Source of the DNA: Candidatus Dormiibacterota bacterium
GTDB taxonomy: Bacteria > Chloroflexota > Dormibacteria > Dormibacterales > Dormibacteraceae
DNA length: 44,244 nucleotides
NCBI GenBank assembly: GCA_036565325.1
Contig: DATCNF010000133.1
Span: forward strand, 1-44,244
Direction of reading: 5' to 3'
The number at the start of each line of letters is the position of its first letter. Position 1 is the first letter of the stretch. Shown here piece after piece: positions 6,554 to 35,017 of this stretch. Both the position numbers and the translations under genes were made by a program. The notes beneath the pieces were generated by a model, which saw only the letters and a program-made list of their open reading frames with translations, was not told where the DNA came from and did not search any database.

Positions 6554-7408
6554 TTACGGACGCAGCGCCGCGATCAGGCGCACGACTTCGTCGGTGAAAT
6601 CGCCGGGCGAGCCAGGTCCCCAGGCGACTGTCTGCACGATCGCCCAGCCGCGCGCCCGGGCCCGGTCCACGCCCGTCAGGTCGGTGAGCTGGTCGAACCG
6701 CCGGCGCACCCGGCGCGCCGGGTTGGGATCGCGGGCGAGGTCCGGGCGGCGGTCGCGGAGCAGCGCCGCCAGGTCGTACGCGGGGTCTCCGCTGATCGGT
6801 TTGGGATCGATCATCAGCCACGGCTCCCGGCCGCCCGCGAGCGCGTTTCCCTGGTGGAAGTCCTGGTGCAGCACGACCGGCGCCGGCGCCGGTTCCAGGA
6901 GGCCGGGGATCAGCTCCATCGCCTCTTCCACGGCGGGGTCGCCGGGCACCAGCTCCTGGGCCCAGCGGCGGGCGATCGACTCCAACGTCCGGTACCGCGA
7001 GCCGGGCGGCGGCGGCCGCCAGACCCGGCGCAGGATCGCGGCCGAGATCGCGTTAGCCCGTTCCTCCGGCAGTGTCCCGAGCGAGCGGTCGGCCTGCAGG
7101 CGCTCCAGCAGCAGCGCCCCGCGGCCGTCGTCGCAGAAGAGCCGTACCGCGCCTTCGCCGTCGAAGAGCCGCAGCGCGTCAGCCTCATGCTCGCTCTCCT
7201 CGTGGAAGCCCCAGCTGACCTTGAGCACCTGCTCCGCGCCCGCGTCGTAGACCACACTGGTGACGCCGGTTCCCAACACCGGGCCGAGCTCCAACGACCA
7301 CTCCTCGGCGAGCCGCTCCAGGCGCGCGGGAAGGTCCTCCAGCCAGCGCCGGCCGTCGGGAAACAGTCTCAGCGTCCGCTCGGCAAACGCCGAGGGCACG
7401 GCGGTCAA
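6554..7408 (-). CDS. Aminoglycoside phosphotransferase-fold kinase, APH(6)/hydroxyurea-kinase-like
   Basis: 284 aa. Has an EQVLKV lysine region, catalytic loop VLHQDFHQGNAL, and IDPKPISGDPAYDLA, in the order I recall for streptomycin 6-kinase-type enzymes. TTG start at 7408 (GTG 7399 is the alternative). Confidence 0.7.
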   Translation of the reverse strand: MTAVPSAFAERTLRLFPDGRRWLEDLPARLERLAEEWSLELGPVLGTGVTSVVYDAGAEQVLKVSWGFHEESEHEADALRLFDGEGAVRLFCDDGRGALLLERLQADRSLGTLPEERANAISAAILRRVWRPPPPGSRYRTLESIARRWAQELVPGDPAVEEAMELIPGLLEPAPAPVVLHQDFHQGNALAGGREPWLMIDPKPISGDPAYDLAALLRDRRPDLARDPNPARRVRRRFDQLTDLTGVDRARARGWAIVQTVAWGPGSPGDFTDEVVRLIAALRP

Positions 7409-20070: not shown

Positions 20071-20898
20071 TCAGAGCCGCGCCAGCTCCTCTTCGACGCG
20101 CGCCAGCAGGCGGTCGGCGGCGTAGTCGTCGTACGCGCGGCGGTCGTAACACAGCGTGAGGAAACAACGTCCCTCGCGTATCGCTCCTTGCGCGAGGATG
20201 CCGGGCTCGCCCGGGTTCACCAGCGGAAACGCCATCAGGGCGCCGCCGCCGCCGACATTGGTGATCGTGAAGCCCCCGCCGGTCACCTCGTCCGGCCGGA
20301 GTCCCGCTGCCCGCGCCCGCGCTGCCAGATCGGCGATCCGGTCAGACACCTGGTCGAGGTCGAGCGCCGGCACGTCCTTCACCACCGGCACCAGCAGGCC
20401 GCCCGGCACCTCCACCGCCACGCCGACATTGGCGACCGGCACCGCCGCTGCCAGCGCCTTTACGAAGTAGGACGTCCAGCTCCGCGCACCGCGCTGGATG
20501 TGGGACACGTCGACCTCGCGCACGCAGGCGCCCTGGGGGATGCGTGCCCGCGCCTCCTGCATGCGCTCGGCGATGCGCCGTCGCATCGAGCTGAGGCCGC
20601 CGGCGGGCGCCGGGGCCACGGCGGCAGGCGGGGGCTGCGTCATCGCGTGGTGGACGCCGACCCGTGGCCCGTCATCCCCGATCCGCGCGATGACCTGGCC
20701 CACCGGCACCGTCTCGCCGGCCGCGACCAGGATCTCCAGCACCCCGTCCGCCGGCGCCTCCAGCTCGGAGTTGACCTTGTCGGTCTCGATCTCGACCAGC
20801 GGCTCGCCCTTGCGCACGGCCTCCCCGGCCTGCTTGAGCCAGCGCGAGACGGTTCCCTCGACCAGGGTGTCGGCCAGCTTGGGCAGCTCGACGTCCAT
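20071..20898 (-). CDS. Lipoyl-domain E2-like acyltransferase with shortened core, no PSBD, and Arg replacing the catalytic His
   Basis: Lipoyl domain with IETDKV. A Pro/Ala linker runs straight into the core (SSMRRRIAERM, GLLVPVVKD, GGGFTITNVGG). The position of DHRxxDG reads YDRRAYDD (Arg codon 20140-20142). Confidence 0.8.
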   Translation of the reverse strand: MDVELPKLADTLVEGTVSRWLKQAGEAVRKGEPLVEIETDKVNSELEAPADGVLEILVAAGETVPVGQVIARIGDDGPRVGVHHAMTQPPPAAVAPAPAGGLSSMRRRIAERMQEARARIPQGACVREVDVSHIQRGARSWTSYFVKALAAAVPVANVGVAVEVPGGLLVPVVKDVPALDLDQVSDRIADLAARARAAGLRPDEVTGGGFTITNVGGGGALMAFPLVNPGEPGILAQGAIREGRCFLTLCYDRRAYDDYAADRLLARVEEELARL

Positions 20899-20923: not shown

Positions 20924-21313
20924 TTATGAGCTACTCGAACGCCGTCTGACCCAGATCAGCGCCGGCGCCCAGGTCAGGGCGCCGGCTGCCAGGAGCGCCC
21001 ACTCCAGCCCGCGTACGGCGGGCATCTCGACCAGGGCGCCGAAGATGCACATCGACGCCGCGCCCGCCAGCAGGAAGGCCCCCGGGAAGAGCGCCCAGGC
21101 GCTGTACCAGGGCGGGGCGCCTTCGCGGTCGCTGAGGCGGTCGGTGAGGATCACGGCCAGCGCCACCAGCAGCGCGGGCACGCTCATGCTCAGGGCCCAG
21201 GGCGCCTGGACTCCGCCCGCCATGGCCGCGATCAGGGGCTGGATGGCGCAAAGCGTGAGCCCAGCCGGAACCGTGAAAGCGAGCAGCCGAAGGGTGGCCG
21301 AGGCGGGGGGCAT
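20924..21313 (-). CDS. Small hypothetical membrane protein (about 4 TM)
   Basis: ATG 21313 overlaps the upstream stop (TGATG) and lies 7 nt after GGGGAGG. 129 aa, hydrophobic, high GC3. The upstream part of ORF 20924..21673 is shadow. Confidence 0.65.
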   Translation of the reverse strand: MPPASATLRLLAFTVPAGLTLCAIQPLIAAMAGGVQAPWALSMSVPALLVALAVILTDRLSDREGAPPWYSAWALFPGAFLLAGAASMCIFGALVEMPAVRGLEWALLAAGALTWAPALIWVRRRSSSS

Positions 21314-22803
21314 CAAACAACCTCCCCGCTCGCCGGGGAGGTCCCTCGCGGCGCAGCCGCGAGGGGGTGGGGACGTTCCGCCTCTAGCGACCGCTTGAGC
21401 ACGGCGAGAAAGCGCCCGGCGTCGGCGCCGTCGACGGCGCGGTGGTCGACCGACAGGGCCAGGTAAGCCTTGCCGTCGCGCACCGCTCCCACCCGGAGCG
21501 TCGCGCTCTGGCCCGGGCGCACTGCGGGGAGGCCGAGCAGGGAGCCGGAGCTGCCGTAGTCGACCAGGGTGAAGGTGCCGCCGCCGCGGGCGGGGGAGAG
21601 GAGGCCGAGGTCGAGGTCGATCGAGACCTGGTCGTGGAGCAGGATGCCGTCCCAGGTGAAGGTGGCGTTGCACTGGGGGACCGCCGCGCAGGCCTCGGCG
21701 ACCGCGGCCACCACCGCCTCCAGGTGGGCTTCGGGGAGTTCCACTTCGACGACGCTGGTTGCCTCGGGGATGGTGGTGTCGTACGGCTCCCCCACCCCAA
21801 CCCTCCCCGGGGGGGAGGGGGTCTGTTGCATCACCTTTCTAGCCGCCTCGGCGATTCCCCTTCGGTTAGGGATCACCGCGTCTTCCATGCGGTCGGCCAC
21901 CGGGATGCCCCCGATGTCGGGCATGGCGACGCGGGCGGGCGGGACGCGGAGCACGCCCGCTTCGGCGGCCAGGGCGCACAGCTCGGCGCCCAGGCCCATG
22001 GTCAGCGTGTCCTCGTGGACCACCAGGAGGCGGCCGGTCCGGCGCAATGCATTCAGGAGGCCTTCGCGGTCGAGCGGCAGCAGCCAGCGCAGGTCGAGCA
22101 CCTCGGCCTCGATCCCTTCGGCGGCCAGCTCCTCGGCCGCGGCCAGCGCCTCGTGCAGCATCATCCCCCAGCCCACGATGGTCAGGGCGTCGCCGGCGCG
22201 CGCGACCCGCAGCCGCCCGTCGTCGACCACGTGCTCGCCCTCCGGCACCGGGCCGCTGATCGCCCGGTAGGTGCGCTTGTGTTCCAGGAAGAGCACCGGG
22301 TCGGGGTCCCGGATGGCGGCGGTGAGCATCCCCTTGGCGTCGTCCGGGAACGACGGGGCCATCACCTTCAGCCCGGGGACGTGCGCGTAGAACGCCTCCA
22401 CGCTCTGGGAGTGGTAGGGGCCGCCCCGGAACCCGCCGCCGTAGGCGGTGCGCATGACCAGCGGGCACGTCCAATCGCCGCCGGTGCGGTAGCGGAGCCG
22501 GGCGGCTTCGCCGGCCAGGTGGTCCATGGCGGCGTGCATGAAGTCGGCGAACTGGATCTCAGCCACCGGCCGCAGGCCGCGCATGGCGATCCCCATCGAG
22601 ATGCCTGAGATCGCCAGCTCGGCCATCGGCATGTCGATGACGCGCTCGGGCCCGAAGCGGTCGAGCAGCCCCTCGGTGGCGCGGAAGACGCCACCCAGGC
22701 GCCCGATGTCCTCGCCCAGCAGGATGACGCGCTCGTCCCGCGTCATCTCCTCCGCGAGAGACTCGCGGACCGCGTCAAGAAGTGTGAGCGTACGTGTGCT
22801 CAA
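21313..22803 (-). CDS. 2-oxoacid (or acetoin) dehydrogenase E1 beta subunit fused to a partial E2 acyltransferase core domain
   Basis: Residues ~1-325 are E1 beta (LLGEDIGRLGGVF, MPMAELAISG, PSFPDDAKGML). A linker PSPPGRVGVG follows, then ~140 aa with GGTFTLVDYGS and LSVDHRAVDGADAGRFL (His codon 21442-21444). The last ~18 aa are encoded by repeat copy B. TTG start overlaps E1 alpha by 29 nt. Confidence 0.8.
   Translation of the reverse strand: MSTRTLTLLDAVRESLAEEMTRDERVILLGEDIGRLGGVFRATEGLLDRFGPERVIDMPMAELAISGISMGIAMRGLRPVAEIQFADFMHAAMDHLAGEAARLRYRTGGDWTCPLVMRTAYGGGFRGGPYHSQSVEAFYAHVPGLKVMAPSFPDDAKGMLTAAIRDPDPVLFLEHKRTYRAISGPVPEGEHVVDDGRLRVARAGDALTIVGWGMMLHEALAAAEELAAEGIEAEVLDLRWLLPLDREGLLNALRRTGRLLVVHEDTLTMGLGAELCALAAEAGVLRVPPARVAMPDIGGIPVADRMEDAVIPNRRGIAEAARKVMQQTPSPPGRVGVGEPYDTTIPEATSVVEVELPEAHLEAVVAAVAEACAAVPQCNATFTWDGILLHDQVSIDLDLGLLSPARGGGTFTLVDYGSSGSLLGLPAVRPGQSATLRVGAVRDGKAYLALSVDHRAVDGADAGRFLAVLKRSLEAERPHPLAAAPRGTSPASGEVV
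21317..21375 (+). repeat. SD/anti-SD hairpin repeat, copy B, inside the 3' coding tail of the E1beta-E2' gene
   Basis: H1 CCTCCCCG-ctcgc-CGGGGAGG (21321-21341). H2 CCCTCGCGGC-gca-GCCGCGAGGG (21343-21365), then GGTGGGGACG. Relative to copy A, both stems carry a two-sided A:T to G:C change. Confidence 0.8.
21789..21820 (-). repeat. SD/anti-SD hairpin repeat, copy D (inverted relative to copy C), in frame as the E1beta/E2' linker
   Basis: Plus strand: CCCCACCCCAACCCTCCCCGGGGGGGAGGGG, matching the reverse complement of copy C. Minus strand: CCCUCCCC/GGGGAGGG hairpin, then GGGAGG, 6 nt, in-frame GTG (21795), plus four G-runs. Confidence 0.7.
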
Positions 22804-27556: not shown

Positions 27557-28237
27557 CTAGTTCGTGGGCTTGGCGCCGAAGAGCCGCCGGATGCGGTCCC
27601 AGAGCACCAGGAAGAAGAGGCTCAGCGCATTGACGGGCTTGGCGGTGGCCATCGGTCGCGGCGCGACCGGTGCGACCTGGGCGGGGGTGGCCGGCGCCGC
27701 CGTGGCCGCCGCGGCATCGGCGCCGGTGGCCGCCGCTTCCGCGACCGCCGGTGCTTCAGCCGCGCTCACTTCGATGGCGCCGGGCGCCCCCTCGCCTTCG
27801 AGGTTGGACTTGATGCAGGCGGCCATCTGGCTGACCAGGCGCCGGGAGACGTCCTCCATCACGCCGCGCCCGAAGTTGGCGACCCGGCCGGCAACTGTGA
27901 AGTCGGTCTCCAGCTTGACCGTGGAGCCGGCGCCGTCGGCCAGCACGCTCATGGTGGCGGTGGCGTTGGCGGAGCCGGGACCGGTGGTCTCGCGACCGCT
28001 GGCTTCCAGCTTCGCGATCCGCGCCGCGTCGTCCTTTTCGATGATCTTGGCGGTGCCGTTGTAGGCCACCGTGATGGGGCCGACCTTGATCTTCACCTTG
28101 CCCTTGAAGGTGGTCGGGTCGACTACCTCGGAGAGCTCGGCGCCCGGCATGCAGCCGACCACGCGGTTGATGTCGACCAGGAATGCAAAAACCGTGTCCG
28201 GCGGGGCGGCGACTGGGAACTGGTTCTCGATCTGCAT
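27557..28237 (-). CDS. coxG: CoxG/SRPBCC-family protein with Ala/Pro-rich linker and C-terminal hydrophobic tail
   Basis: N-terminal ~145 aa MQIENQFPVAAPPDTVFAFLVDINRVVGCMPGA... is CoxG-like. It is followed by an AP-rich low-complexity stretch and VNALSLFFLVLWDRIRRLF. Confidence 0.8.
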   Translation of the reverse strand: MQIENQFPVAAPPDTVFAFLVDINRVVGCMPGAELSEVVDPTTFKGKVKIKVGPITVAYNGTAKIIEKDDAARIAKLEASGRETTGPGSANATATMSVLADGAGSTVKLETDFTVAGRVANFGRGVMEDVSRRLVSQMAACIKSNLEGEGAPGAIEVSAAEAPAVAEAAATGADAAAATAAPATPAQVAPVAPRPMATAKPVNALSLFFLVLWDRIRRLFGAKPTN

Positions 28238-28373: not shown

Positions 28374-28904
28374 ATGAAGCACAAGGTCGCGACCACCATC
28401 AATGGGAGGGGCCGGCAAGACGAAGTCGAGGCTCGACTCCTCCTCGTCCACTACATACGCGACGTCGCCGGCCTGACCGGCACCCATGTCGGGTGCGACA
28501 CCAGCCAGTGCGGCGCCTGCACGATCCTGGTCGATGGCAAGGCCATCAAGTCCTGCACCATGTTCGCCGTCCAGGCCGAGGGGCGCCAGCTCACGACCAT
28601 CGAGGGCCTGGCCGACGGGGACACGCTGCATCCCATCCAGCAGGCCTTCTGGGATGAGCACGGACTGCAGTGCGGCTACTGCACGCCCGGCTTCATCATG
28701 GCCGCCAAGTACCTCCTCGACACCAACCCCAGCCCCAGCGACGACGAGATCCGCAAGGGCCTGGAAGGCAACCTGTGCCGCTGCACCGGCTACGTCAACA
28801 TCATCAAGGCCGTGAAGACGGCCTCCCAGGTCATGGGTGGCGCGCAGCAGGCGAAGCCTGCGACCGCCGGCCAGCCGGTGGGCCAGCCCACGGCAGGGAG
28901 CTAG
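28374..28904 (+). CDS. coxS: Molybdenum hydroxylase small subunit, [2Fe-2S]-binding (CoxS/CutS-like)
   Basis: Both Fe-S cluster motifs are present: [10 protein letters not shown] and CGYCTPGF...CRCTGY. Confidence 0.95.
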
Positions 28905-28908
28905 AGCG

Positions 28909-31449
28909 ATGGCGATCAGCAAGATGATCGGCGCCAAGATCCATCGCCGCGAAGATCCCCGGCTGGTCTCCGGCGGCGGCCGCTACATGGACGACTTCAA
29001 ACGGCCCAACACCACCTACGCCGCTTTCATCCGCAGCCCTTACGCGCACGCCAAGATCCGGATGATCGACCCCACCGAGGCCAAGCAGGCGCCCGGGGTC
29101 GTGGCCGTGTTCACCGCGAAGGACTTCGAAGGCGTGCTGATGGGCCCGGCGCCGGTCGCGCCGGCCTTCGTGGCCGAGAAGCACACGGTTCCCGACCGGC
29201 CGCCGCTGCCGCTCGACGAGGTCGTCTACCAGGGCCAGCCCGTGGCCATGGTGATCGCCGAGTCGAAGGCCGAGGCCGCCGACGCGGCGGCGCTGGTCCA
29301 GGTCGACTACGAGCCGCTGCCCGCGGTCATGGACCTCGAGAAGGCCCTCGACCCCAGCAGCCCCAAGGCGCACACCGCGCTGCCCGACAACATCGCCTGG
29401 GACCTGGTCTACAACGCTGACGCCGACTCGAGCTTCGCCGAGGCCGAGGTCACCGTGAAGGAGCGGATCCTGCAGCAGCGCCTGGCGCCGACTCCAATGG
29501 AGACGCGCAGCGTGATGGCCGAGTGGAGCCCACACGAGGGCTCGATGACGCTCTGGCTCTCCAACCAGGGTCCCCACTTCATCCGCCTCTTCGTGGGCGG
29601 CGCGCTGGGGCTTCCCGAAAACCGCATGCGCGTCATCTCGCCCGATGTGGGCGGAGGCTTCGGCGCCAAGATCTGCCCCTACCCCGAGGACTACCTGGTG
29701 CCGGGGGCCGCCAAGATTCTCAAGCGACCGGTCAAGTGGACCGAGAGCCGCACCGAGTCGATCCAGGTCACCACCCACGGCCGCGGCCAGATCTTCGACG
29801 TCGAGGTCGCCGGCATGAAGGACGGCACGCTGCTGGGCATGAAGGTCACCCAGTACCTGGACGCGGGGGCCTACATCGGCACCTTCGGCGCCTTCCAGGC
29901 CTGCGCCTGCCTGCTGGCGGGTGGCGGCTACAAGTGGAAGCAGATCGCCGCCCGCACCATCGGCGTGCTCACCAACAAGGTTTCCACCGATCCCTACCGC
30001 GGCGCCGGCCGGCCCGAGGCCACCCACCTGGTGGAGCGCATGGTCGACGTCTTCGCTCGCGAGATCGGGATGGACCCCGCGGCGGTCCGCAAGAAGAACT
30101 TCGTCCAGCCCGGAGACTTCCCCTACACCCAGAACTTCGGGCTGGTCATGGACTCCGGCGACTACGAGCGCTCGCTCGACAAGGCGATGCAGATCGTCGG
30201 CTACGAGCAGGTGCGCAAGGAGCAGGAGGAGGGCCGTAAGCAGGGCCGCTATATCGGCATCGGGCTCTCCACCTGGATCGAGATCTGCGGCTTCGGCCCG
30301 GCGGCCGCCACCGCCCCGGCCACCGGCGGGATCGGGCTCGTGGAGTCGGCACAGGTACGCGTGTATCCCACCGGTTCGGTGACGGTCTGGACCGGCACCC
30401 ACTCGCACGGCCAGGGGCACGAGACCACGTTCAGCCAGATCGTGGCCGACACCCTGGGCATCCCCTACGACCAGATCGAGATCAAGCACGGCGACACCGG
30501 CGAAGGCACCGCCTTCGGCTACGGGACCTACGGGTCGCGCTCGCTGGCCGTCGGCGGGATGGCGATCAAGATGGCCTCGCAGAAGGTCGTCGACAAGGCC
30601 AAGCAGATCGCCGCCCATTCCTTCGAGGCGGCCGAAGAGGACGTCGTCTTCGAAGGCGGCGAGTTCTACGTCAAGGGCTCGCCCGACAACCGGCGCAAGA
30701 TCCAGGAGGTCGCGTTCGAGGCCTACGGCGCCGCGCTGCCGGAAGGCATGGAGCAAGGGCTGGAGGCGGTCGCCTACTTCGATCCGCCCAACTTCGTGTG
30801 GCCCTTCGGCGCCCACATCTGTGTGGTCGAGGTGGACATCGAGACGGGCGCCGTCAAGATGCTGAAGTACGTGGCCGTGGACGACTGCGGCAACGTGATC
30901 AACCCCATGATCGTGGAGGGCCAGCTGCACGGCGGAATCGCGCAGGGCATCGCCCAGGCCCTCTTCGAAGAAGTGATCTACGCGGAGGACGGCAGCCTGC
31001 GCACGGGCACGCTGCTCGACTACGCGATCCCCACGGCCAACGAGATGCCGCCGCTCACCCTAGACAGCACGGTGACCCCCTCGCCGACCAACGCGCTCGG
31101 CGTCAAGGGCATCGGTGAGGCGGGCACGATCGCGGCCAGCGGGGCCGTGATCAACGCCATCGTGGACGCGCTTTCGCCCCTTGGCGTGCGCCACGTCGAC
31201 ATGCCGGCCAGCCCGGACCGGCTCTGGAAGCAGCTGCAGGAGCACCGCACCGGCCTCGAGGGCTACCACACGGTGGCCGTCGCCGACACCCCCGAGGTTG
31301 ACGACGCGCCGCGCAAGGGCGGGCCCGAGTCCGAGCTGCCCGGCAGCCTGGACGAGGGCGAGATCGGCAAGACCGGCGGCAAGGCCGAGCCCGGCTCGGA
31401 AGGCTCGCCGCAGGAGGGGCCGCGCCACCAGAAGGACTACGACCGATGA
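28909..31449 (+). CDS. Molybdenum hydroxylase large subunit (xanthine dehydrogenase family; form-II CoxL-like) with ~65-aa acidic/Gly/Pro C-terminal extension
   Basis: ATG 28909 lies 8 nt after AGGGAG. Aldehyde-oxidase/XDH a/b-hammerhead and MoCo-binding domains are present. The active-site loop reads DPYRGAGRPEA (about 29989-30021). GIGEAGTIAA lies near the C-terminus. Confidence 0.9.
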   Translation: MAISKMIGAKIHRREDPRLVSGGGRYMDDFKRPNTTYAAFIRSPYAHAKIRMIDPTEAKQAPGVVAVFTAKDFEGVLMGPAPVAPAFVAEKHTVPDRPPLPLDEVVYQGQPVAMVIAESKAEAADAAALVQVDYEPLPAVMDLEKALDPSSPKAHTALPDNIAWDLVYNADADSSFAEAEVTVKERILQQRLAPTPMETRSVMAEWSPHEGSMTLWLSNQGPHFIRLFVGGALGLPENRMRVISPDVGGGFGAKICPYPEDYLVPGAAKILKRPVKWTESRTESIQVTTHGRGQIFDVEVAGMKDGTLLGMKVTQYLDAGAYIGTFGAFQACACLLAGGGYKWKQIAARTIGVLTNKVSTDPYRGAGRPEATHLVERMVDVFAREIGMDPAAVRKKNFVQPGDFPYTQNFGLVMDSGDYERSLDKAMQIVGYEQVRKEQEEGRKQGRYIGIGLSTWIEICGFGPAAATAPATGGIGLVESAQVRVYPTGSVTVWTGTHSHGQGHETTFSQIVADTLGIPYDQIEIKHGDTGEGTAFGYGTYGSRSLAVGGMAIKMASQKVVDKAKQIAAHSFEAAEEDVVFEGGEFYVKGSPDNRRKIQEVAFEAYGAALPEGMEQGLEAVAYFDPPNFVWPFGAHICVVEVDIETGAVKMLKYVAVDDCGNVINPMIVEGQLHGGIAQGIAQALFEEVIYAEDGSLRTGTLLDYAIPTANEMPPLTLDSTVTPSPTNALGVKGIGEAGTIAASGAVINAIVDALSPLGVRHVDMPASPDRLWKQLQEHRTGLEGYHTVAVADTPEVDDAPRKGGPESELPGSLDEGEIGKTGGKAEPGSEGSPQEGPRHQKDYDR

Positions 31450-31627
31450 CCCGGGCCGCACCGGGCCAGCCGGACGTCGACGACGCTCCCCGCCGCGGGG
31501 GGCCGCAGTCGCCGCTGCCGGGAAGCCTCGACGAGGGCCAGATCGCGGGCACCGGCGGCTCCGCCGAGCCCGGTTCCGAAGGCTCGCCGCAAGAAGGACC
31601 ACGCCACCAGGAGGATTACGACCAGTG
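31270..31627 (+). repeat. Tandem duplication, 2 x 179 bp, spanning the coxL 3' end and the junction to coxM
   Basis: GTTGACGACGCG... at 31297 recurs as GTCGACGACGCT... at 31476, and the stop codons at 31447-31449 and 31626-31628 are 179 nt apart. The encoded peptides match at about 42 of 52 aligned residues (my count). Confidence 0.85.
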
Positions 31628-31628
31628 A
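31446..31628 (+). CDS. 60-aa ORF paralogous to the CoxL C-terminal tail (acidic, Gly/Pro-rich)
   Basis: ATG overlaps the coxL stop (ATGA), and its own stop overlaps the coxM GTG (GTGA). Sequence: ...DVDDAPRRGGPQSPLPGSLDEGQIAGTGGSAEPGSEGSPQEGPRHQEDYDQ. Divergence from copy 1 is mostly synonymous in the last 14 codons. Confidence 0.5.
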   Translation: MTRAAPGQPDVDDAPRRGGPQSPLPGSLDEGQIAGTGGSAEPGSEGSPQEGPRHQEDYDQ

Positions 31629-32431
31629 TACCCGCTGCGTTCGAATACGCCCGCGCCTCCTCGGTGCAGGAGGCATCCGACCTGCTCGGCAAGTTCGGCG
31701 AGGACGCCAAGGTCCTCGCCGGCGGCCACAGCCTGATCCCGCTGATGCGGCTGCGCCTGGCGCAGCCGTCCGCGCTCGTGGACATCACCGGCGTCAAGGA
31801 GCTCTCCTACATCACGCGGGAGAACGGCAAGCTCCGGATCGGCGCCCTCACCCGCCACGTGGAGATCCACAACAGCGAGGAGATCAAGCAGAGCCTGCCG
31901 ATCCTGGCCGAGGTGGCCTCCGAGGTGGGGGACAACCAGGTGCGCAACATGGGCACCATCGGCGGCGTCATCGCGCACGCCGACTCGGCCGGCGACTACC
32001 CGACGCTCTGCGTCATGCTCGACGCCGAGATCGTCACCAACAAGCGGCGGCACGCCGCGCACGAGTTCTTCCAGGACCTCTTCACGACCCCCCTGGAGAA
32101 CGACGAGATCGTGTGCGAGGTCGTCTTCCCGGTGGCCAGCGGGGCGCACAAGTACATCAAGTTCCGGCGCCGCCTCTTCGACTGGGCGATCGTGGGCGCG
32201 GCCGCCCAGCGCACCGACCAGGGGTGGCGGATCGGGCTCACCAACGTGGGGCCGACGCCGGTCCGGGCGGTGGCGGTCGAGCAGGCGCTCGGCCAGGGTG
32301 CCTCGCCTTCAGAGGCTGCCGAGCACGCCTCGGACGGGCTCAACCCGAGCGGCGACATCCGGGCCACCCCCGAGTACAAGAAGCACCTGGCGAGGGTGCT
32401 GACACGACGCGCCATCGAACAGTCTCAATAG
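31625..32431 (+). CDS. coxM: Molybdenum hydroxylase medium subunit, FAD-binding (CoxM/CutM-like)
   Basis: GTG 31625 gives VIPAAFEYARASSVQEASDLL...AGGHSLIPLMRLRL, a typical CoxM N-terminus. The upstream part of ORF 31181..32431 is a frame shadow over the coxL tail. Confidence 0.9.
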   Translation: MIPAAFEYARASSVQEASDLLGKFGEDAKVLAGGHSLIPLMRLRLAQPSALVDITGVKELSYITRENGKLRIGALTRHVEIHNSEEIKQSLPILAEVASEVGDNQVRNMGTIGGVIAHADSAGDYPTLCVMLDAEIVTNKRRHAAHEFFQDLFTTPLENDEIVCEVVFPVASGAHKYIKFRRRLFDWAIVGAAAQRTDQGWRIGLTNVGPTPVRAVAVEQALGQGASPSEAAEHASDGLNPSGDIRATPEYKKHLARVLTRRAIEQSQ

Positions 32432-32466: not shown

Positions 32467-32829
32467 GTGGCCCTCGCCACGGCGGCGCCGGGCACGGTGC
32501 TGATCGCCGTCCGGCTCTGGAGCGCGGCCGCCGGGGTAGCGGCTTCGGCGTTCCGGATGCTCGGGCCGTACGTGCACCCGGCTGCGATCACCCTCGTCGT
32601 GCTGGCATTGGCCCTCCTCGCACTGGCCGTCCCGGCCTGGCGCGGCAACCCCTTGGCGGTGGCCGCCGGCACCGCGCTGCTGGTGGTGGTCGCGCTGGTC
32701 AGCGCCCAGCTGGTCGTCGCCGACCGCTCCGCCTACCTCCTGCTGGGGGTGGCGCTGCTGGGCGCCGCCCCAGGCGCGTTCCTGGTGAGCGGCCCGGCGT
32801 TCTTCGACCCCGCCCGCACCCGGCGCTGA
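32467..32829 (+). CDS. Hypothetical small membrane protein
   Basis: The frame-1 tail of ORF 32113..32829 is hydrophobic (3-4 helices) with high GC3. GTG 32467 is the first plausible start after the coxM stop. Confidence 0.4.
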   Translation: MALATAAPGTVLIAVRLWSAAAGVAASAFRMLGPYVHPAAITLVVLALALLALAVPAWRGNPLAVAAGTALLVVVALVSAQLVVADRSAYLLLGVALLGAAPGAFLVSGPAFFDPARTRR

Positions 32830-32865: not shown

Positions 32866-33813
32866 GTGAACCGAGACTCACCCCACGAAACCTTGCGGTT
32901 TCGCGGGGACCCCGAGGACGGGGCCGCGCCCGCCTCCATCGACGACCTCATGGCGCGGCTGCGCGAGCGCAGCTACATCGGCGACCGCGCCCTCGCCACC
33001 TCGATCTACCTGGCCCTCAAGCTCGGCAAACCCCTCTTCATCGAAGGCGAGGCCGGGGTGGGCAAGACAGAGGCCGCCAAGGTCATGGCCGACGTCCTGG
33101 GCGCGCGCCTGATCCGGCTCCAGTGCTACGAAGGCATCGACCTCGCGCACGCGGTCTACGAGTGGAACTATCCCCGCCAGCTCCTGCACATCCGGCTCCT
33201 CAACGAGACCTCGGACCGGGGCGCTGCCGAGAAGCAGATCTACAGCCCGGAGTTCCTGCTCCGGCGGCCGCTGCTGGACGCCATCGACAACCACGACCCG
33301 GTGCCGCCGGTGCTCCTGATCGACGAGATCGACCGCTCGGACGAGGAGTTCGAGGCCTTCCTGCTCGAGGTCCTCAGCGAGTTCCAGATCTCGATCCCCG
33401 AGCTGGGCACCATCACCGCCACCCAGGCGCCCTTCGTGGTGATCACCTCCAACCGCACTCGCGAGGTCCACGACGCGCTCAAGCGCCGCTGCCTCTATCA
33501 CTGGATCGACTACCCGAACCTGGAGAAGGAGATCGCGATCGTGCGCGCCCGCGCGCCTGAGGCCGCCGAGGGCCTGGCCCGCGAGGTGGCCCAGCTGGTC
33601 CAGAACCTGCGGGGCATGGAGCTCTACAAGGTCCCCGGCGTGGCCGAGACGCTGGACTGGGCGCGCTCGCTGGCCGCGCTGGGCGCCACCAACCTGGATC
33701 CCCAGCTGGTCGACGCCACCCTGGGCGCGGCCCTCAAGTACCAGGAGGACCTGGAGAAGGCGCGCGAGAACCTGCCCGAGCTGGTGGCCAAATCTCGTAT
33801 CGGCGGTGGCTGA
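32866..33813 (+). CDS. coxD: MoxR-family AAA+ ATPase (CoxD-like)
   Basis: Walker A GEAGVGKT, Walker B VLLIDEIDR, FVVITSNRT. The start is uncertain: GTG 32866, TTG 32893 and ATG 32950 are all in frame, and the first ~12 codons have low GC3. Confidence 0.85.
   Translation: MNRDSPHETLRFRGDPEDGAAPASIDDLMARLRERSYIGDRALATSIYLALKLGKPLFIEGEAGVGKTEAAKVMADVLGARLIRLQCYEGIDLAHAVYEWNYPRQLLHIRLLNETSDRGAAEKQIYSPEFLLRRPLLDAIDNHDPVPPVLLIDEIDRSDEEFEAFLLEVLSEFQISIPELGTITATQAPFVVITSNRTREVHDALKRRCLYHWIDYPNLEKEIAIVRARAPEAAEGLAREVAQLVQNLRGMELYKVPGVAETLDWARSLAALGATNLDPQLVDATLGAALKYQEDLEKARENLPELVAKSRIGGG
32886..32903. promoter_or_regulatory. Inverted repeat CGAAACC-ttgc-GGTTTCG at the 5' edge of the coxD-like gene
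   Basis: Perfect 7-bp arms. It shares the CGAAA/TTTCG half-site with the coxG/coxS spacer repeat. Confidence 0.3.
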
Positions 33814-35017
33814 GCGCCCGCGCGCCGACCTCCTGCCGCGCCTGGCGACCTTCGCGCGGCTCCTCCATGACGCCGGCCTCGAGGCCGGCCCGGGCCGCCT
33901 GACCGACTCCGCGCGGGCCCTCGGGCACATCGACCTGCGCCTGCAGGAGGACTTTCGTAGCGCCCTGCGCTCGGTGTTCGTGAGCCGCAAGGAGGAGCTG
34001 CCCATCTTCGAGGCGGCCTTCGACATCTTCTGGGCGCCCCCCGACCCGCGCATCCTGGCCGGGGCCATCCCGGGGCGGCCGCGCCCGCTCCCGCTGCCGC
34101 CCGAGAAGGCCCGGGCCTGGATGCAGCTGCTCGGCCTCAACACCTCGCGCATGCCGCGCGAGCAGGAGGGCGAGCCCCCGCCGGCGACCAGCTCCGGCTA
34201 CAGCGCCCAGGAGCTGCTGCGGCGCAAGGACTTCGAGGACCTGACCTGGCAGGAGACCGAGCAGGTAAAGCGCCTGCTGCAGCAGTCGCCGTGGCGGATC
34301 GCGGAGCGGAAGACGCGCCGGGTGCGCCCCTCCTCGCGGGGCTCGGTCGACCTCCGGCGCACCGCGCGCCGCTCGATCCGGACCAGCGGCGAGATGGTCA
34401 CGCTGCTGCACCGGCAGCCGCGCCTGCGCCGGCGCCCGATCGTGCTCCTCTGCGACGTCAGCGGCTCGATGGAGAAGTACAGCCGGCTGCTGCTGATCTT
34501 CGCCCACGCCATCGCTCGGCGCGAGGACGTGGAAACCTTCGTCTTCTCCACCCGGCTGACGCGCATCACGCGCCTGCTTCGCCGGCGCGACCTCGACCGG
34601 GCGCTGGCGGATGTCAGCAAGCAGGTGCACGACTTCAGCGGCGGCACCCGGATCGGCCAGGCCCTGGCCGACTTCAACCGGCGCTGGGCGCGGCGCGTGC
34701 TGGGGCACGGCGCGGTCGTGATCGTGGTCAGCGACGGGTGGGATCGCGGCGACCCCTCCCAGCTCGAGCACGAGCTCTCGCGCCTGCATCGGATGGCACA
34801 TCGCCTGATCTGGCTCAACCCGCTGCTCGGCTCGGAGGGCTATGAGCCGCTGACGCGCGGCATGCAGGCCGCGCTGCCCCACACCGACGACTTCCTGGCC
34901 GCCCACAACCTGCAGGCGCTGGATGAATTGGGCCGGCTGCTGGCCGGTTTAAATCGTCATCGGCGCCCGCGGCACGCGGAGCGCGTGGCTAAGGTGGAGC
35001 AAGAGATCGATGCGTGA
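33806..35017 (+). CDS. coxE: VWA-domain protein (CoxE-like)
   Basis: 403 aa. MIDAS-type VLLCDVSGSM and VVIVVSDGWDRG. GTG start overlaps the coxD end by 8 nt. Confidence 0.85.
   Translation: MAERPRADLLPRLATFARLLHDAGLEAGPGRLTDSARALGHIDLRLQEDFRSALRSVFVSRKEELPIFEAAFDIFWAPPDPRILAGAIPGRPRPLPLPPEKARAWMQLLGLNTSRMPREQEGEPPPATSSGYSAQELLRRKDFEDLTWQETEQVKRLLQQSPWRIAERKTRRVRPSSRGSVDLRRTARRSIRTSGEMVTLLHRQPRLRRRPIVLLCDVSGSMEKYSRLLLIFAHAIARREDVETFVFSTRLTRITRLLRRRDLDRALADVSKQVHDFSGGTRIGQALADFNRRWARRVLGHGAVVIVVSDGWDRGDPSQLEHELSRLHRMAHRLIWLNPLLGSEGYEPLTRGMQAALPHTDDFLAAHNLQALDELGRLLAGLNRHRRPRHAERVAKVEQEIDA

What the first reader, a model, noticed from the sequence alone, without database searches (positions are those of the whole stretch)
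31270..31628. 179-bp tandem duplication at the coxL/coxM junction creates a 60-aa ORF that copies the CoxL tail, with mostly synonymous divergence
The last ~52 codons of coxL (PEVDDAPRKGGPESELPGSLDEGEIGKTGGKAEPGSEGSPQEGPRHQKDYDR) recur 179 nt later as ORF 31446..31628 (PDVDDAPRRGGPQSPLPGSLDEGQIAGTGGSAEPGSEGSPQEGPRHQEDYDQ). Both copies end in a stop that overlaps the next start (ATGA, then GTGA), so the gene-junction signal was duplicated too. In the last 14 codons I count 5 synonymous and 2 replacement differences (cag/caa, gag/gaa, ggg/gga, ccg/cca, gac/gat). This argues that both peptides are translated and under purifying selection. Copy 2 prefers A/T-ending codons, which is odd for this genome. 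The tail itself, about 65 aa and acidic/Gly/Pro-rich, is not part of canonical CoxL proteins.
Basis: seen in the sequence. Interest (0 to 1): 0.65.

Follow-up and report, generated by a model that had tools for sequence, protein, structure and literature searches.

The report
New small gene from coxL-tail duplication
A 179-base tandem duplication across the coxL/coxM gene junction of an uncultured soil Dormibacterota bacterium created a 60-codon gene that copies the disordered tail of CoxL; several diverged lineages keep it under purifying selection, so it is a clean small case of gene birth whose function is still unknown.

Summary
Bases 31291-31449 (last 52 codons of coxL plus TGA) recur at 31470-31628. 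The offset is exactly 179 nt and 120/156 coding bases match. It is not an assembly artefact. Four public runs each give a contig spanning both copies. The exact 60-aa protein occurs in 24 blocks of assemblies. At least three or four diverged lineages show the same architecture without indels. Between orthologues, ORF60 has dN/dS 0.16-0.19, and variable sites fall 7/6/24 by codon position. These values resemble coxL and coxM, so ORF60 is translated and constrained. Its first five codons (MTRAA) appear to derive from coxM (MIPAA). The 3n-1 unit length puts the copied tail in frame behind the old coxM start. The 64-aa tail lies outside all CoxL models and structures. It occurs, in single copy, only in a Dormibacterota subclade. 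The A/T-ending codons of copy 2 are the normal pattern just upstream of coxM's start. One related population has a single c1/c2 hybrid tail, best read as collapse by recombination. The peptide is acidic and predicted to be disordered, and its function is unknown. The enzyme is form-II-like, not a proven CO dehydrogenase.

The parts
28374..28904 (+). coxS-like [2Fe-2S] small subunit
   Evidence: Pfam Fer2/Fer2_2 on the identical gene in L081. NCBIfam hits to the gamma/iron-sulfur subunits of the xanthine dehydrogenase family.
28909..31449 (+). Form-II-type coxL-like molybdopterin large subunit (846 aa). The core is 28909-31254 and the C-terminal tail is 31255-31446.
   Evidence: Pfam Ald_Xan_dh_C, MoCoBD_1 and MoCoBD_2. 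TIGR02416 scores 717 bits against a cut-off of 991. The best PDB match is 8uem_A, and all matches end at residue 772-782.
31255..31446 (+). 64-aa acidic Gly/Pro/Glu-rich tail of CoxL (pI 4.5, GRAVY -1.3)
   Evidence: Composition. The tail lies outside all family and structure matches. It occurs as a single copy in 10 of 80 related loci. Orthologue dN/dS is 0.05-0.16.
31291..31449 (+). Repeat copy 1: last 52 codons of coxL plus TGA
   Evidence: the repeat finder family D1; alignment.
31431..31436 (+). Shine-Dalgarno-like GAAGGA upstream of the ORF60 ATG. It is weakened relative to the GGAGGA in the equivalent place of copy 2 and of L076.
   Evidence: Read from the sequence. It is conserved in L087 and L088.
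31446..31449 (+). ATGA overlap: coxL stop and ORF60 start (formerly the coxM start)
   Evidence: The same ATGA junction joins coxL to coxM in nearly all single-copy relatives.
31446..31628 (+). ORF60, a 60-codon chimeric gene (MTRAAPGQ + 52 tail codons)
   Evidence: Called as a gene in JGI and ENA assemblies. It is intact in L087, L088 and the X6 contig. dN/dS is 0.16-0.19. AlphaFold2 gives pLDDT 62.5 and pTM 0.14, coil throughout.
31446..31460 (+). Head of ORF60, probably derived from coxM codons 1-5 (MTRAA against MIPAA)
   Evidence: ATGACCCGGGCCGCA against the L076 coxM start ATGATCCCAGCCGCA matches 12/15 in frame, and similarity stops after nt 15. This is an inference.
31461..31469 (+). 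Three junction codons (PGQ) of unclear origin
   Evidence: Only 3/9 bases match 31282-31290 at offset 179. The origin is not resolved.
31470..31628 (+). Repeat copy 2: 52 tail codons plus TGA
   Evidence: the repeat finder family D1.
31609..31615 (+). Shine-Dalgarno AGGAGGA for coxM, embedded in codons Q-E-D of ORF60
   Evidence: Read from the sequence. A GGAGG is present 8-12 nt before the coxM start in the relatives listed.
31625..31628 (+). GTGA overlap: ORF60 stop and coxM start
31625..32431 (+). coxM-like FAD-binding medium subunit (268 aa, GTG start)
   Evidence: Pfam FAD_binding_5 and CO_deh_flav_C. The N-terminus VIPAAFEYA is conserved in relatives.

Best explanation
An ancestral coxS-coxL-coxM operon of a soil or permafrost Dormibacterota lineage underwent a 179-bp tandem duplication. 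In that ancestor, coxL carried a disordered acidic C-terminal tail and ended in an ATGA overlap with coxM. The duplicated unit held the last 52 tail codons, the ATGA junction and about the first five codons of coxM. The unit is 3n-1 bases long, which cancels the -1 frame offset between coxL and coxM. The second tail copy therefore sits in frame behind the old coxM start codon. The result is a 60-codon chimeric gene: the coxM start plus 5 codons, 3 junction codons, and 52 tail codons. It is translationally coupled to coxL upstream (ATGA, SD GAAGGA). It hands ribosomes to coxM downstream (GTGA, SD AGGAGGA inside its last codons). The gene is translated, and its acidic, disordered peptide is under purifying selection. 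Shown: the anatomy, independent assembly, persistence in several lineages, and coding constraint. Inferred: the breakpoints, and the function. The most likely function is that the free peptide acts in trans on whatever partner the CoxL tail contacts through its conserved end (GSPQEGPRHQ-x-DYD). That partner would be within the CoxSLM complex or its accessory proteins CoxG, CoxD or CoxE. The repeat can collapse again by recombination between the copies.
For: The repeat and both stop/start overlaps are confirmed. The exact ORF60 protein is encoded in 24 blocks of public assemblies, always between coxL and coxM. In each of four runs a Logan contig spans both copies with 0 differences and no joint. 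L087, L088 and the 1183-nt X6 contig are diverged lineages (91-96% nt identity) with the same architecture and no indels. ORF60 orthologue dN/dS is 0.156, 0.173 and 0.187, with p<=4e-4 against neutrality. Variable sites fall 7/6/24 by codon position, and the other two frames give dN/dS of about 2. In the X6 lineage 9 of the 10 listed differences inside ORF60 are third positions, and in the X16 lineage 5 of 5. There is no concerted evolution: c1-c2 dS is 0.84-0.91 within genomes and 0.79-0.87 between genomes. Using L076 as outgroup, both copies changed about equally: 9 c1-derived and 6 c2-derived fixed differences. The ORF60 head matches the ancestral coxM start at 12/15 nt in frame. Tails of single-copy relatives are themselves under purifying selection, with dN/dS 0.04-0.5. 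The peptide is acidic (pI 4.2, GRAVY -1.3) and AlphaFold2 predicts no fold.
Against: There is no direct evidence of translation. The runs labelled RNA looked like DNA metagenomes, and the one true metatranscriptome did not cover ORF60. Function is pure inference: ORF60 hits no NCBIfam model, carries no Pfam annotation in the assemblies, and has no homologue outside its own cluster among 1.84 billion representatives. A related population carries a single hybrid tail and no ORF60, so the gene is dispensable at least there. ORF60's SD is weaker than coxM's, and copy 1 has lost the low-GC3 signature of a strong initiation region. This may mean low expression. The c1-c2 synonymous divergence (0.8-0.9) exceeds the coxL-core dS to the single-copy relatives L001 (0.53) and L076 (0.62). 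The dating of the duplication is therefore unsettled.
Confidence: 0.75

Rival explanations
1. ORF60 is a passive bridge. It is translated only because ribosomes leaving coxL must travel to the coxM start. Selection keeps it open, keeps the coxM Shine-Dalgarno in its last codons, and keeps the peptide harmless (hydrophilic, disordered). The peptide itself does nothing.
For: Both stop/start overlaps are retained. The last codons of ORF60 contain the coxM SD and show the low GC3 typical of the region upstream of coxM in 74 loci. A single-copy hybrid without ORF60 exists in a close relative. ORF60's own SD is weakened.
Against: A pure spacer should show dN/dS near 1 away from the SD. Yet dN/dS is 0.16-0.19 over the whole ORF, close to the CoxL tail (0.05-0.16) and the coxM 5' end (0.06-0.26). 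Blocks far from the SD are invariant in three lineages despite synonymous change (PGQPDVDDAPR, GSL-x-EG-x-I-x-GTGG). coxM has its own strong SD and so does not obviously need the bridge.
Confidence: 0.18
2. The duplication is much older than it looks and predates the split from L001 and L076. The single-copy tails in those relatives would be secondary collapses, so ORF60 is repeatedly gained or lost rather than a recent invention.
For: c1-c2 dS (0.8-0.9) is larger than the coxL-core dS between the window and L001 (0.53) or L076 (0.62). Collapse by recombination is observed directly in the X7/X9 contig. L076 resembles copy 2 at its 3' end (HQEDYD; CAA and GGT codons) and copy 1 at its 5' end (LEGYH..), as a hybrid would.
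Against: c1 and c2 are closer to each other (120/156 nt, dN 0.147) than either is to L076 (108 and 107/156, dN 0.32 and 0.25). All ten tail-bearing relatives in 80 loci are single copy. No ORF60-like protein exists outside the narrow cluster. dS estimates on 52 codons at GC3 0.83-0.94 are very noisy.
Confidence: 0.2
3. The tandem repeat is an assembly or binning artefact, or ORF60 is a decaying pseudo-copy that happens to stay open in a GC-rich genome.
For: Long spurious ORFs are common in this 71% GC window. Tandem Repeats Finder did not report the repeat.
Against: The copies share no exact stretch longer than about 14 nt, so k-mer assemblers cannot confuse them. Independent assemblies agree: 24 blocks and four Logan runs. 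Diverged lineages keep length, frame, start and stop. Third-position bias and dN/dS are far below 1. The antisense ORFs 31437-31676 and 31060-31797 have their wobble position on ORF60 codon positions 1 and 2, which does not fit the variation. ORF 31151-31552 shares the wobble position but ends inside ORF60 (my arithmetic coordinates).
Confidence: 0.02

Closest known systems
Gene birth by partial tandem duplication (chimeric new genes)
   Same: A segment spanning parts of two adjacent genes is duplicated head to tail. A new reading frame is assembled from the start of one gene and the end of the other, and selection then retains it.
   Different: Here the unit crosses a 4-base stop/start overlap and its 3n-1 length restores the frame. 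The product is only 60 aa and both translational couplings survive. I know of no described case with this geometry (from my own knowledge; literature search found none). It is in an uncultured bacterium, so function is untested.
Form II cox (coxSLM) clusters of the xanthine dehydrogenase / Mo-CODH family
   Same: The gene order is S-L-M, the CoxL motif is PYRGAGR, and accessory coxG, coxD-like AAA+, coxE-like VWA and XdhC/CoxI genes are present. Form II is defined by coxSLM order and AYRGAGR in PMC7645674.
   Different: Canonical form II and form I CoxL have no C-terminal tail, and no small ORF lies between coxL and coxM. The substrate is unknown; PMC7645674 calls the function of form II 'still uncertain'.
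Small proteins encoded inside operons of the enzyme complexes they bind (for example CydX in cydABX, KdpF in kdpFABC; from my own knowledge, not tested here)
   Same: A very short ORF sits between or next to the structural genes of a multi-subunit enzyme, is translationally coupled, and is easily missed by annotation.
   Different: Those are hydrophobic single-helix membrane peptides that are not paralogous to a neighbour. ORF60 is acidic, has only 10% hydrophobic residues, is predicted to be disordered, and is a paralogue of the neighbour's tail.
Disordered C-terminal linkers ending in a short conserved docking peptide (for example the SSB acidic tip and the FtsZ C-terminal peptide; from my own knowledge, a lead only)
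   Same: A low-complexity Gly/Pro/acidic stretch with fast-evolving sequence ends in a well-conserved terminal block. GSPQEGPRHQ-x-DYD is identical in c1, c2 and L076 despite synonymous changes.
   Different: No partner is known. Part of the terminal conservation is explained by the embedded coxM Shine-Dalgarno. No binding test was possible.

Membership tests
Form I aerobic CO dehydrogenase large subunit (CoxL, TIGR02416) | Score at or above the curated NCBIfam cut-off | tested here: not met
   717.4 bits against a cut-off of 991.15.
Form I aerobic CO dehydrogenase large subunit (CoxL, TIGR02416) | Active-site signature AYXCSFR and gene order coxMSL (PMC7645674) | tested here: not met
   The sequence has DPYRGAGRPEA, and the order is coxS-coxL-(ORF60)-coxM.
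Form II cox cluster (putative CODH, function uncertain) | coxSLM order and AYRGAGR-type signature (PMC7645674) | tested here: met
   S-L-M order. The motif is PYRGAGR, with one residue different at the first position.
Xanthine dehydrogenase / aldehyde oxidase family molybdopterin subunit | Ald_Xan_dh_C, MoCoBD_1 and MoCoBD_2 domains, with partner Fer2_2 and FAD_binding_5 subunits | tested here: met
   Pfam annotations of the identical genes in L081-L086. PDB homologues are 8uem, 1ffu, 1n5w and 1t3q.
Tandem duplication | Two head-to-tail copies with similarity far above background at a single offset | tested here: met
   159-nt copies, 77% identity, spacing 179. Identity is 68% at offset 179 against 24-37% at other offsets.
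Tandem duplication | Not an assembly artefact: independent data contain both copies and the junction | tested here: met
   24 assembly blocks. Contigs from four runs span 31204-31756 with 0 differences. Diverged lineages L087, L088 and X6 carry it.
Genuine protein-coding small ORF | Start codon with a ribosome-binding site or coupling; ORF conserved in length and frame among orthologues | tested here: met
   ATG inside ATGA, with GAAGGA 10-15 nt upstream. The ORF is 60 codons with the same start and stop in the window, L087 and L088.
Genuine protein-coding small ORF | Purifying selection on the encoded amino acids (dN/dS well below 1 in that frame only) | tested here: met
   dN/dS is 0.156-0.187 with p<=4e-4. 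The other frames give about 2. Variable sites fall 7/6/24 by codon position.
Genuine protein-coding small ORF | Direct detection of the product (ribosome footprints or peptides) | not testable with these tools
   No proteomic data are available. The RNA-labelled runs were uninformative.
Known protein families (NCBIfam, Pfam annotations, 1.84 billion representatives) | Significant match of ORF60 to any described family or to proteins outside its own cluster | tested here: not met
   0 NCBIfam families. No Pfam family on the called gene. Only P0001, its own cluster, was found.

The most novel reading that the evidence does not exclude
ORF60 is a new accessory micro-subunit or regulator of a form-II Mo-hydroxylase. 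As a free copy of the CoxL tail, it would compete or cooperate with the tethered tail for one docking site. Candidate sites are the positively charged face of CoxG and the CoxD AAA+/CoxE maturation machinery. It would thereby tune membrane attachment or cofactor maturation. This would make it a documented case of a disordered enzyme tail being 'liberated' into a trans-acting peptide by a single junction-spanning duplication.
Probability: 0.2. Interest if true: 0.6.

Novelty: new variant of a known kind. Interest (0 to 1): 0.45.

Why it matters
This is an unusually clean natural example of how a bacterial micro-protein gene can arise in one step. The duplication crosses an overlapping stop/start (ATGA). 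Its 3n-1 length automatically gives the copy a start codon, a ribosome-binding site, the right reading frame and a coupled exit into the next gene. The comparative data show three stages: the single-copy ancestor-like state, the duplicated state held under purifying selection in several lineages, and a collapsed hybrid. It also flags an undescribed, conserved, disordered C-terminal tail on form-II CoxL-like enzymes of Dormibacterota, a phylum of interest for trace-gas metabolism in cold and dry soils. The biochemical importance is unknown and may be small.

Tried and rejected
- Tandem Repeats Finder at minimum score 30 did not report the 179-nt array. Direct offset scans and the repeat finder did.
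- The word-indexed homologue search found only one relative. The exhaustive profile search of 1.84 billion representatives found only the same cluster. There is therefore no wider family.
- The metagenome scan returned one extra locus, L088.
- Expression evidence was not usable. Three runs labelled 'RNA?' contain contigs up to 123 kb and are probably DNA. The true metatranscriptome X23 covered only conserved coxL and coxM parts of other taxa. The 390-580-nt 'skips' seen there and are homologues from other species that lack the tail, not deletions.
- AlphaFold2 on ORF60 gave no fold, so no fold search was run. Multimer docking was not possible with the single-chain tool.
- An RNA-structure explanation was rejected. 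The 20-nt spacer hairpin CCCGG..CCGGG is not kept in L087 or L088, and variation is concentrated at codon position 3.
- Antisense ORFs were rejected because their wobble phase does not fit the variation, or because they end inside ORF60.
- An encapsulin-type cargo peptide (LPGSL resembles GSL motifs, from memory) was considered. The 20 further window proteins scanned against Pfam and the Pfam families recorded for the cox-cluster genes show no encapsulin, and the motif is not conserved in related tails. I dropped the idea.
- Gene conversion between the copies was rejected, because paralogues within a genome are no closer than between genomes.
- The paper on cryptic bacterial microproteins (PMC11188072) had nothing on an origin by duplication of neighbouring genes.
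Full report
**1. What is in the sequence**

The region lies in a plus-strand operon. Its genes are:
- coxS (28374-28904)
- coxL (28909-31449)
- a 60-codon ORF (31446-31628)
- coxM (GTG start, 31625-32431)
- a 120-aa ORF without family hits (32467-32829)
- a MoxR/CoxD-like AAA+ gene (32866-33813)
- a VWA/CoxE-like gene (33806-35017)
- an XdhC/CoxI-like gene

coxG lies divergently upstream at 27557-28237.

The repeat finder reports a two-copy direct repeat of 159 nt, at 31291-31449 and 31470-31628, with 77% identity and spacing 179. Identity over 200 nt is 68% at offset 179 and 24-37% at the neighbouring offsets. Copy 1 is the last 52 codons of coxL plus its TGA. Copy 2 is codons 9-60 of the small ORF plus its TGA. 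coxL ends in ATGA and the small ORF ends in GTGA.

**2. It is not an artefact**

The two copies share no exact run longer than about 14 nt. The exact 60-aa protein is encoded in 24 blocks of public assemblies from JGI and ENA soil and permafrost metagenomes, always between coxL and coxM. In four public runs a Logan contig spans both copies with zero differences and no joint.

**3. Both copies code, and ORF60 is constrained in its own right**

Between the paralogues, differences fall 7/6/23 by codon position, and dN/dS is 0.16 with dS 0.91. A paralogue comparison cannot separate the two branches, so I looked for orthologues.
- L087 is a 958-bp JGI contig at 91% nt identity. Its ORF60 is P0001, 85% identical at the amino-acid level.
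- L088 is a 1092-bp contig at 92% nt identity, with ORF60 87% identical.

Both have the same architecture with no indel.

Pairwise dN/dS values are as follows:

| Region | dN/dS |
|---|---|
| ORF60 | 0.156, 0.173, 0.187 |
| CoxL tail | 0.05-0.16 |
| coxL core end | 0.02-0.13 |
| coxM 5' end | 0.06-0.26 |

For ORF60 the binomial p against neutrality is 5e-5 to 4e-4. The other two frames of the ORF60 region give dN/dS of about 2. Variable sites in ORF60 fall 7/6/24 by codon position.

Contigs of further lineages add support. In X6 (1183 nt, spanning the whole region) 9 of the 10 listed differences inside ORF60 are at third positions. In X16, 5 of 5 are.

Paralogues within a genome are no more alike than between genomes: dS is 0.84-0.91 against 0.79-0.87. 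Gene conversion therefore does not explain the similarity. With the single-copy tail of L076 as outgroup, fixed paralogue differences are 9 c1-derived, 6 c2-derived and 4 ambiguous. Copy 2 is not decaying faster than copy 1.

**4. Anatomy of the duplication (partly inferred)**

In nearly all of 80 related loci, mostly Dormibacterota MAGs, coxL overlaps coxM by ATGA or GTGA. coxM begins ATGATCCCNGCNGCNTTCGAATAC, encoding MIPAAFEYA. ORF60 begins ATGACCCGGGCCGCA (MTRAA). This matches the L076 coxM start at 12 of 15 nt in frame, and similarity then stops.

The simplest model is a unit of 179 bp running from within the tail (about 31282-31291) to 15 nt into coxM. The coxM frame is -1 relative to coxL, and 179 = 3n-1. 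The second tail copy therefore lands in the frame of the first (old coxM) start codon. ORF60 is thus a chimera of three parts:
- the coxM initiation region plus five codons
- three junction codons of unclear origin (31461-31469)
- 52 tail codons

The downstream copy of the junction (now GTGA) still starts coxM.

**5. The tail**

All NCBIfam and PDB matches of CoxL end at residue 772-782 of 846. About 60 of 80 related loci end 0-3 residues after the core. Ten loci (L001, L006, L008-L012, L017, L074, L076) carry a 55-80-aa Gly/Pro/Gln/Glu-rich tail, always single copy. These tails evolve fast but under purifying selection, with dN/dS 0.04-0.5. They share short motifs such as PG-S/T and GTGG, and a terminal G-x-PQ-x-G...QE block.

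Only L076 has the window's tail type: LEGYH... GTGGRAEPGSEGSPQEGPRHQEDYDE, 63% identical. L001 has the closest core but a different tail type.

The tail and ORF60 are both acidic (pI 4.5 and 4.2) and hydrophilic (GRAVY -1.3), with 10-14% hydrophobic residues. AlphaFold2 predicts coil for ORF60 (pLDDT 62.5, pTM 0.14), apart from one turn at residues 55-59.

**6. The 'odd' codons**

Copy 2 has GC3 0.83 against 0.94 for copy 1. The overall difference is not significant (9 against 3 A/T-ending codons, Fisher p=0.12). It is concentrated in the last 14 codons, at 0.64 against 0.93.

In 74 related loci the last 14 codons of coxL before the coxM start have GC3 0.77, against 0.89 for the preceding 200 codons (Wilcoxon p=6e-13). 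L076 already has CAA and GGT at the corresponding codons. The pattern is therefore the ordinary signature of the initiation region of coxM. The AGGAGGA Shine-Dalgarno lies in codons Q-E-D, and local folding is weaker (-11.2 against -16.9 kcal/mol).

Copy 1, now upstream of ORF60, has lost this signature, and its SD is reduced to GAAGGA. This hints that ORF60 is initiated less strongly than coxM.

**7. A collapsed form**

In runs X7/X9 (apparently the same data) a 315-nt contig joins 31383 to 31563. It skips exactly 179 nt, with 11 nt fitting both sides. Nothing in those runs covers 31388-31555.

Re-laid on a shorter reference, the contig runs through a single tail into ...CAGTGATACCCGCTGCG, which is coxM. 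I reconstructed it from the listed differences. I then scored it at the sites that are fixed between all c1 and all c2 copies. It is c1-type at 9 of 11 such sites in nt 1-93, and c2-type at 4 of 4 such sites in nt 94-156. Its 123 nt of coxM are identical to the window, where L087 differs at 7 sites and L088 at 2.

This lineage is therefore nested among the duplicated ones. Its single c1/c2 hybrid tail is best read as a deletion by recombination between the copies. The caveats are that depth is 3.3x, this is one observation, and one difference was not listed.

**8. What the enzyme is**

CoxL scores 717 bits against TIGR02416 (cut-off 991) and 712 bits against glyceraldehyde dehydrogenase alpha (cut-off 790). 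It has PYRGAGR rather than AYXCSFR, and the gene order is S-L-M. These are the marks of 'form II' cox clusters, whose function is described as uncertain (PMC7645674). The name coxL should be read in that sense.

**9. Function**

Nothing identifies a partner. The tail's terminal block is identical in c1, c2 and L076 despite synonymous changes. Only part of that conservation is explained by the embedded SD.

I therefore favour a disordered linker with a terminal docking motif, and ORF60 as a free copy acting in trans. The bridge-ORF rival, in which the peptide has no role, remains possible, and the collapsed variant favours it. CoxG of Mycobacterium smegmatis has a lysine-rich, positively charged face (PMC12202499). 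An acidic tail could contact such a face, but this is speculation.

**10. Unsettled**

The c1-c2 dS (0.8-0.9) exceeds the coxL-core dS to the single-copy relatives L001 (0.53) and L076 (0.62). A three-point decomposition puts most synonymous change on copy 2 and most replacement change on copy 1. There are two possible readings. Either the duplication is older than those splits and has collapsed repeatedly, or copy 2 changed its synonymous sites faster. Fifty-two codons at extreme GC3 cannot decide between them.

**11. Verdict**

This is a lineage-restricted micro-gene born by a junction-spanning tandem duplication. It is under purifying selection and its function is unknown. Interest is moderate.

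Noticed in passing
window 32467-32829 (+): A 120-aa ORF lies between coxM and the coxD-like AAA+ gene. By eye it is hydrophobic and likely has several membrane helices. It has no NCBIfam or Pfam family, and it is conserved in all L081-L086 contigs. It could be a membrane partner of the enzyme.
   Followed up: partly
window 27557-28237 (-): The CoxG homologue has an Ala/Pro-rich linker and a hydrophobic C-terminal end, the same layout as described for M. smegmatis CoxG (PMC12202499). It hits Pfam COXG but no NCBIfam model.
   Followed up: partly
L001 6341-6547 compared with window 31255-31446: L001 has the closest CoxL core (dN 0.099), yet its tail is of a different type from the window's. The more distant L076 (dN 0.164) shares the window's tail type. 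Tail and core histories therefore look discordant, through fast tail turnover or recombination.
   Followed up: partly
coxL/coxM junctions of L001-L080; window 31609-31615: The coxM Shine-Dalgarno (GGAGG) is embedded in the last codons of coxL across the clade, read as Q-E-G or Q-E-D. This explains the recurrent 'QEG/QED' ending of otherwise divergent tails and the local drop in GC3.
   Followed up: yes
runs X7/X9, laid on window 31255-31747: A natural single-copy c1/c2 hybrid tail exists without ORF60. It carries six amino-acid changes relative to the parental copies (P>K, E>K, K>H, T>S, K>Q, E>Q). This is more than in the c1 copies of L087 or L088.
   Followed up: partly
window 21313-22803 (-) and 20071-20898 (-): The E1-beta-like (transketolase-domain) ORF carries a C-terminal extension of about 170 aa. 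Residues 408-473 of that extension are 41% identical to the C-terminal end of the adjacent lipoyl/E2 acyltransferase ORF. This may be another partial duplication or fusion in the same window.
   Followed up: partly
window 6554-7408 (-): An ORF matches Pfam APH_6_hur (aminoglycoside/hydroxyurea resistance kinase family, E=1.5e-36). It sits among transporter and central-metabolism genes.
   Followed up: no
window 31322-31347 and 31514-31539: An imperfect inverted repeat (26 nt, 77% complementary) links copy 1 and copy 2. It arises from the near-palindromic GCTGCC(C/G)GG(C/A)AGC in each copy. No conservation test was done.
   Followed up: no
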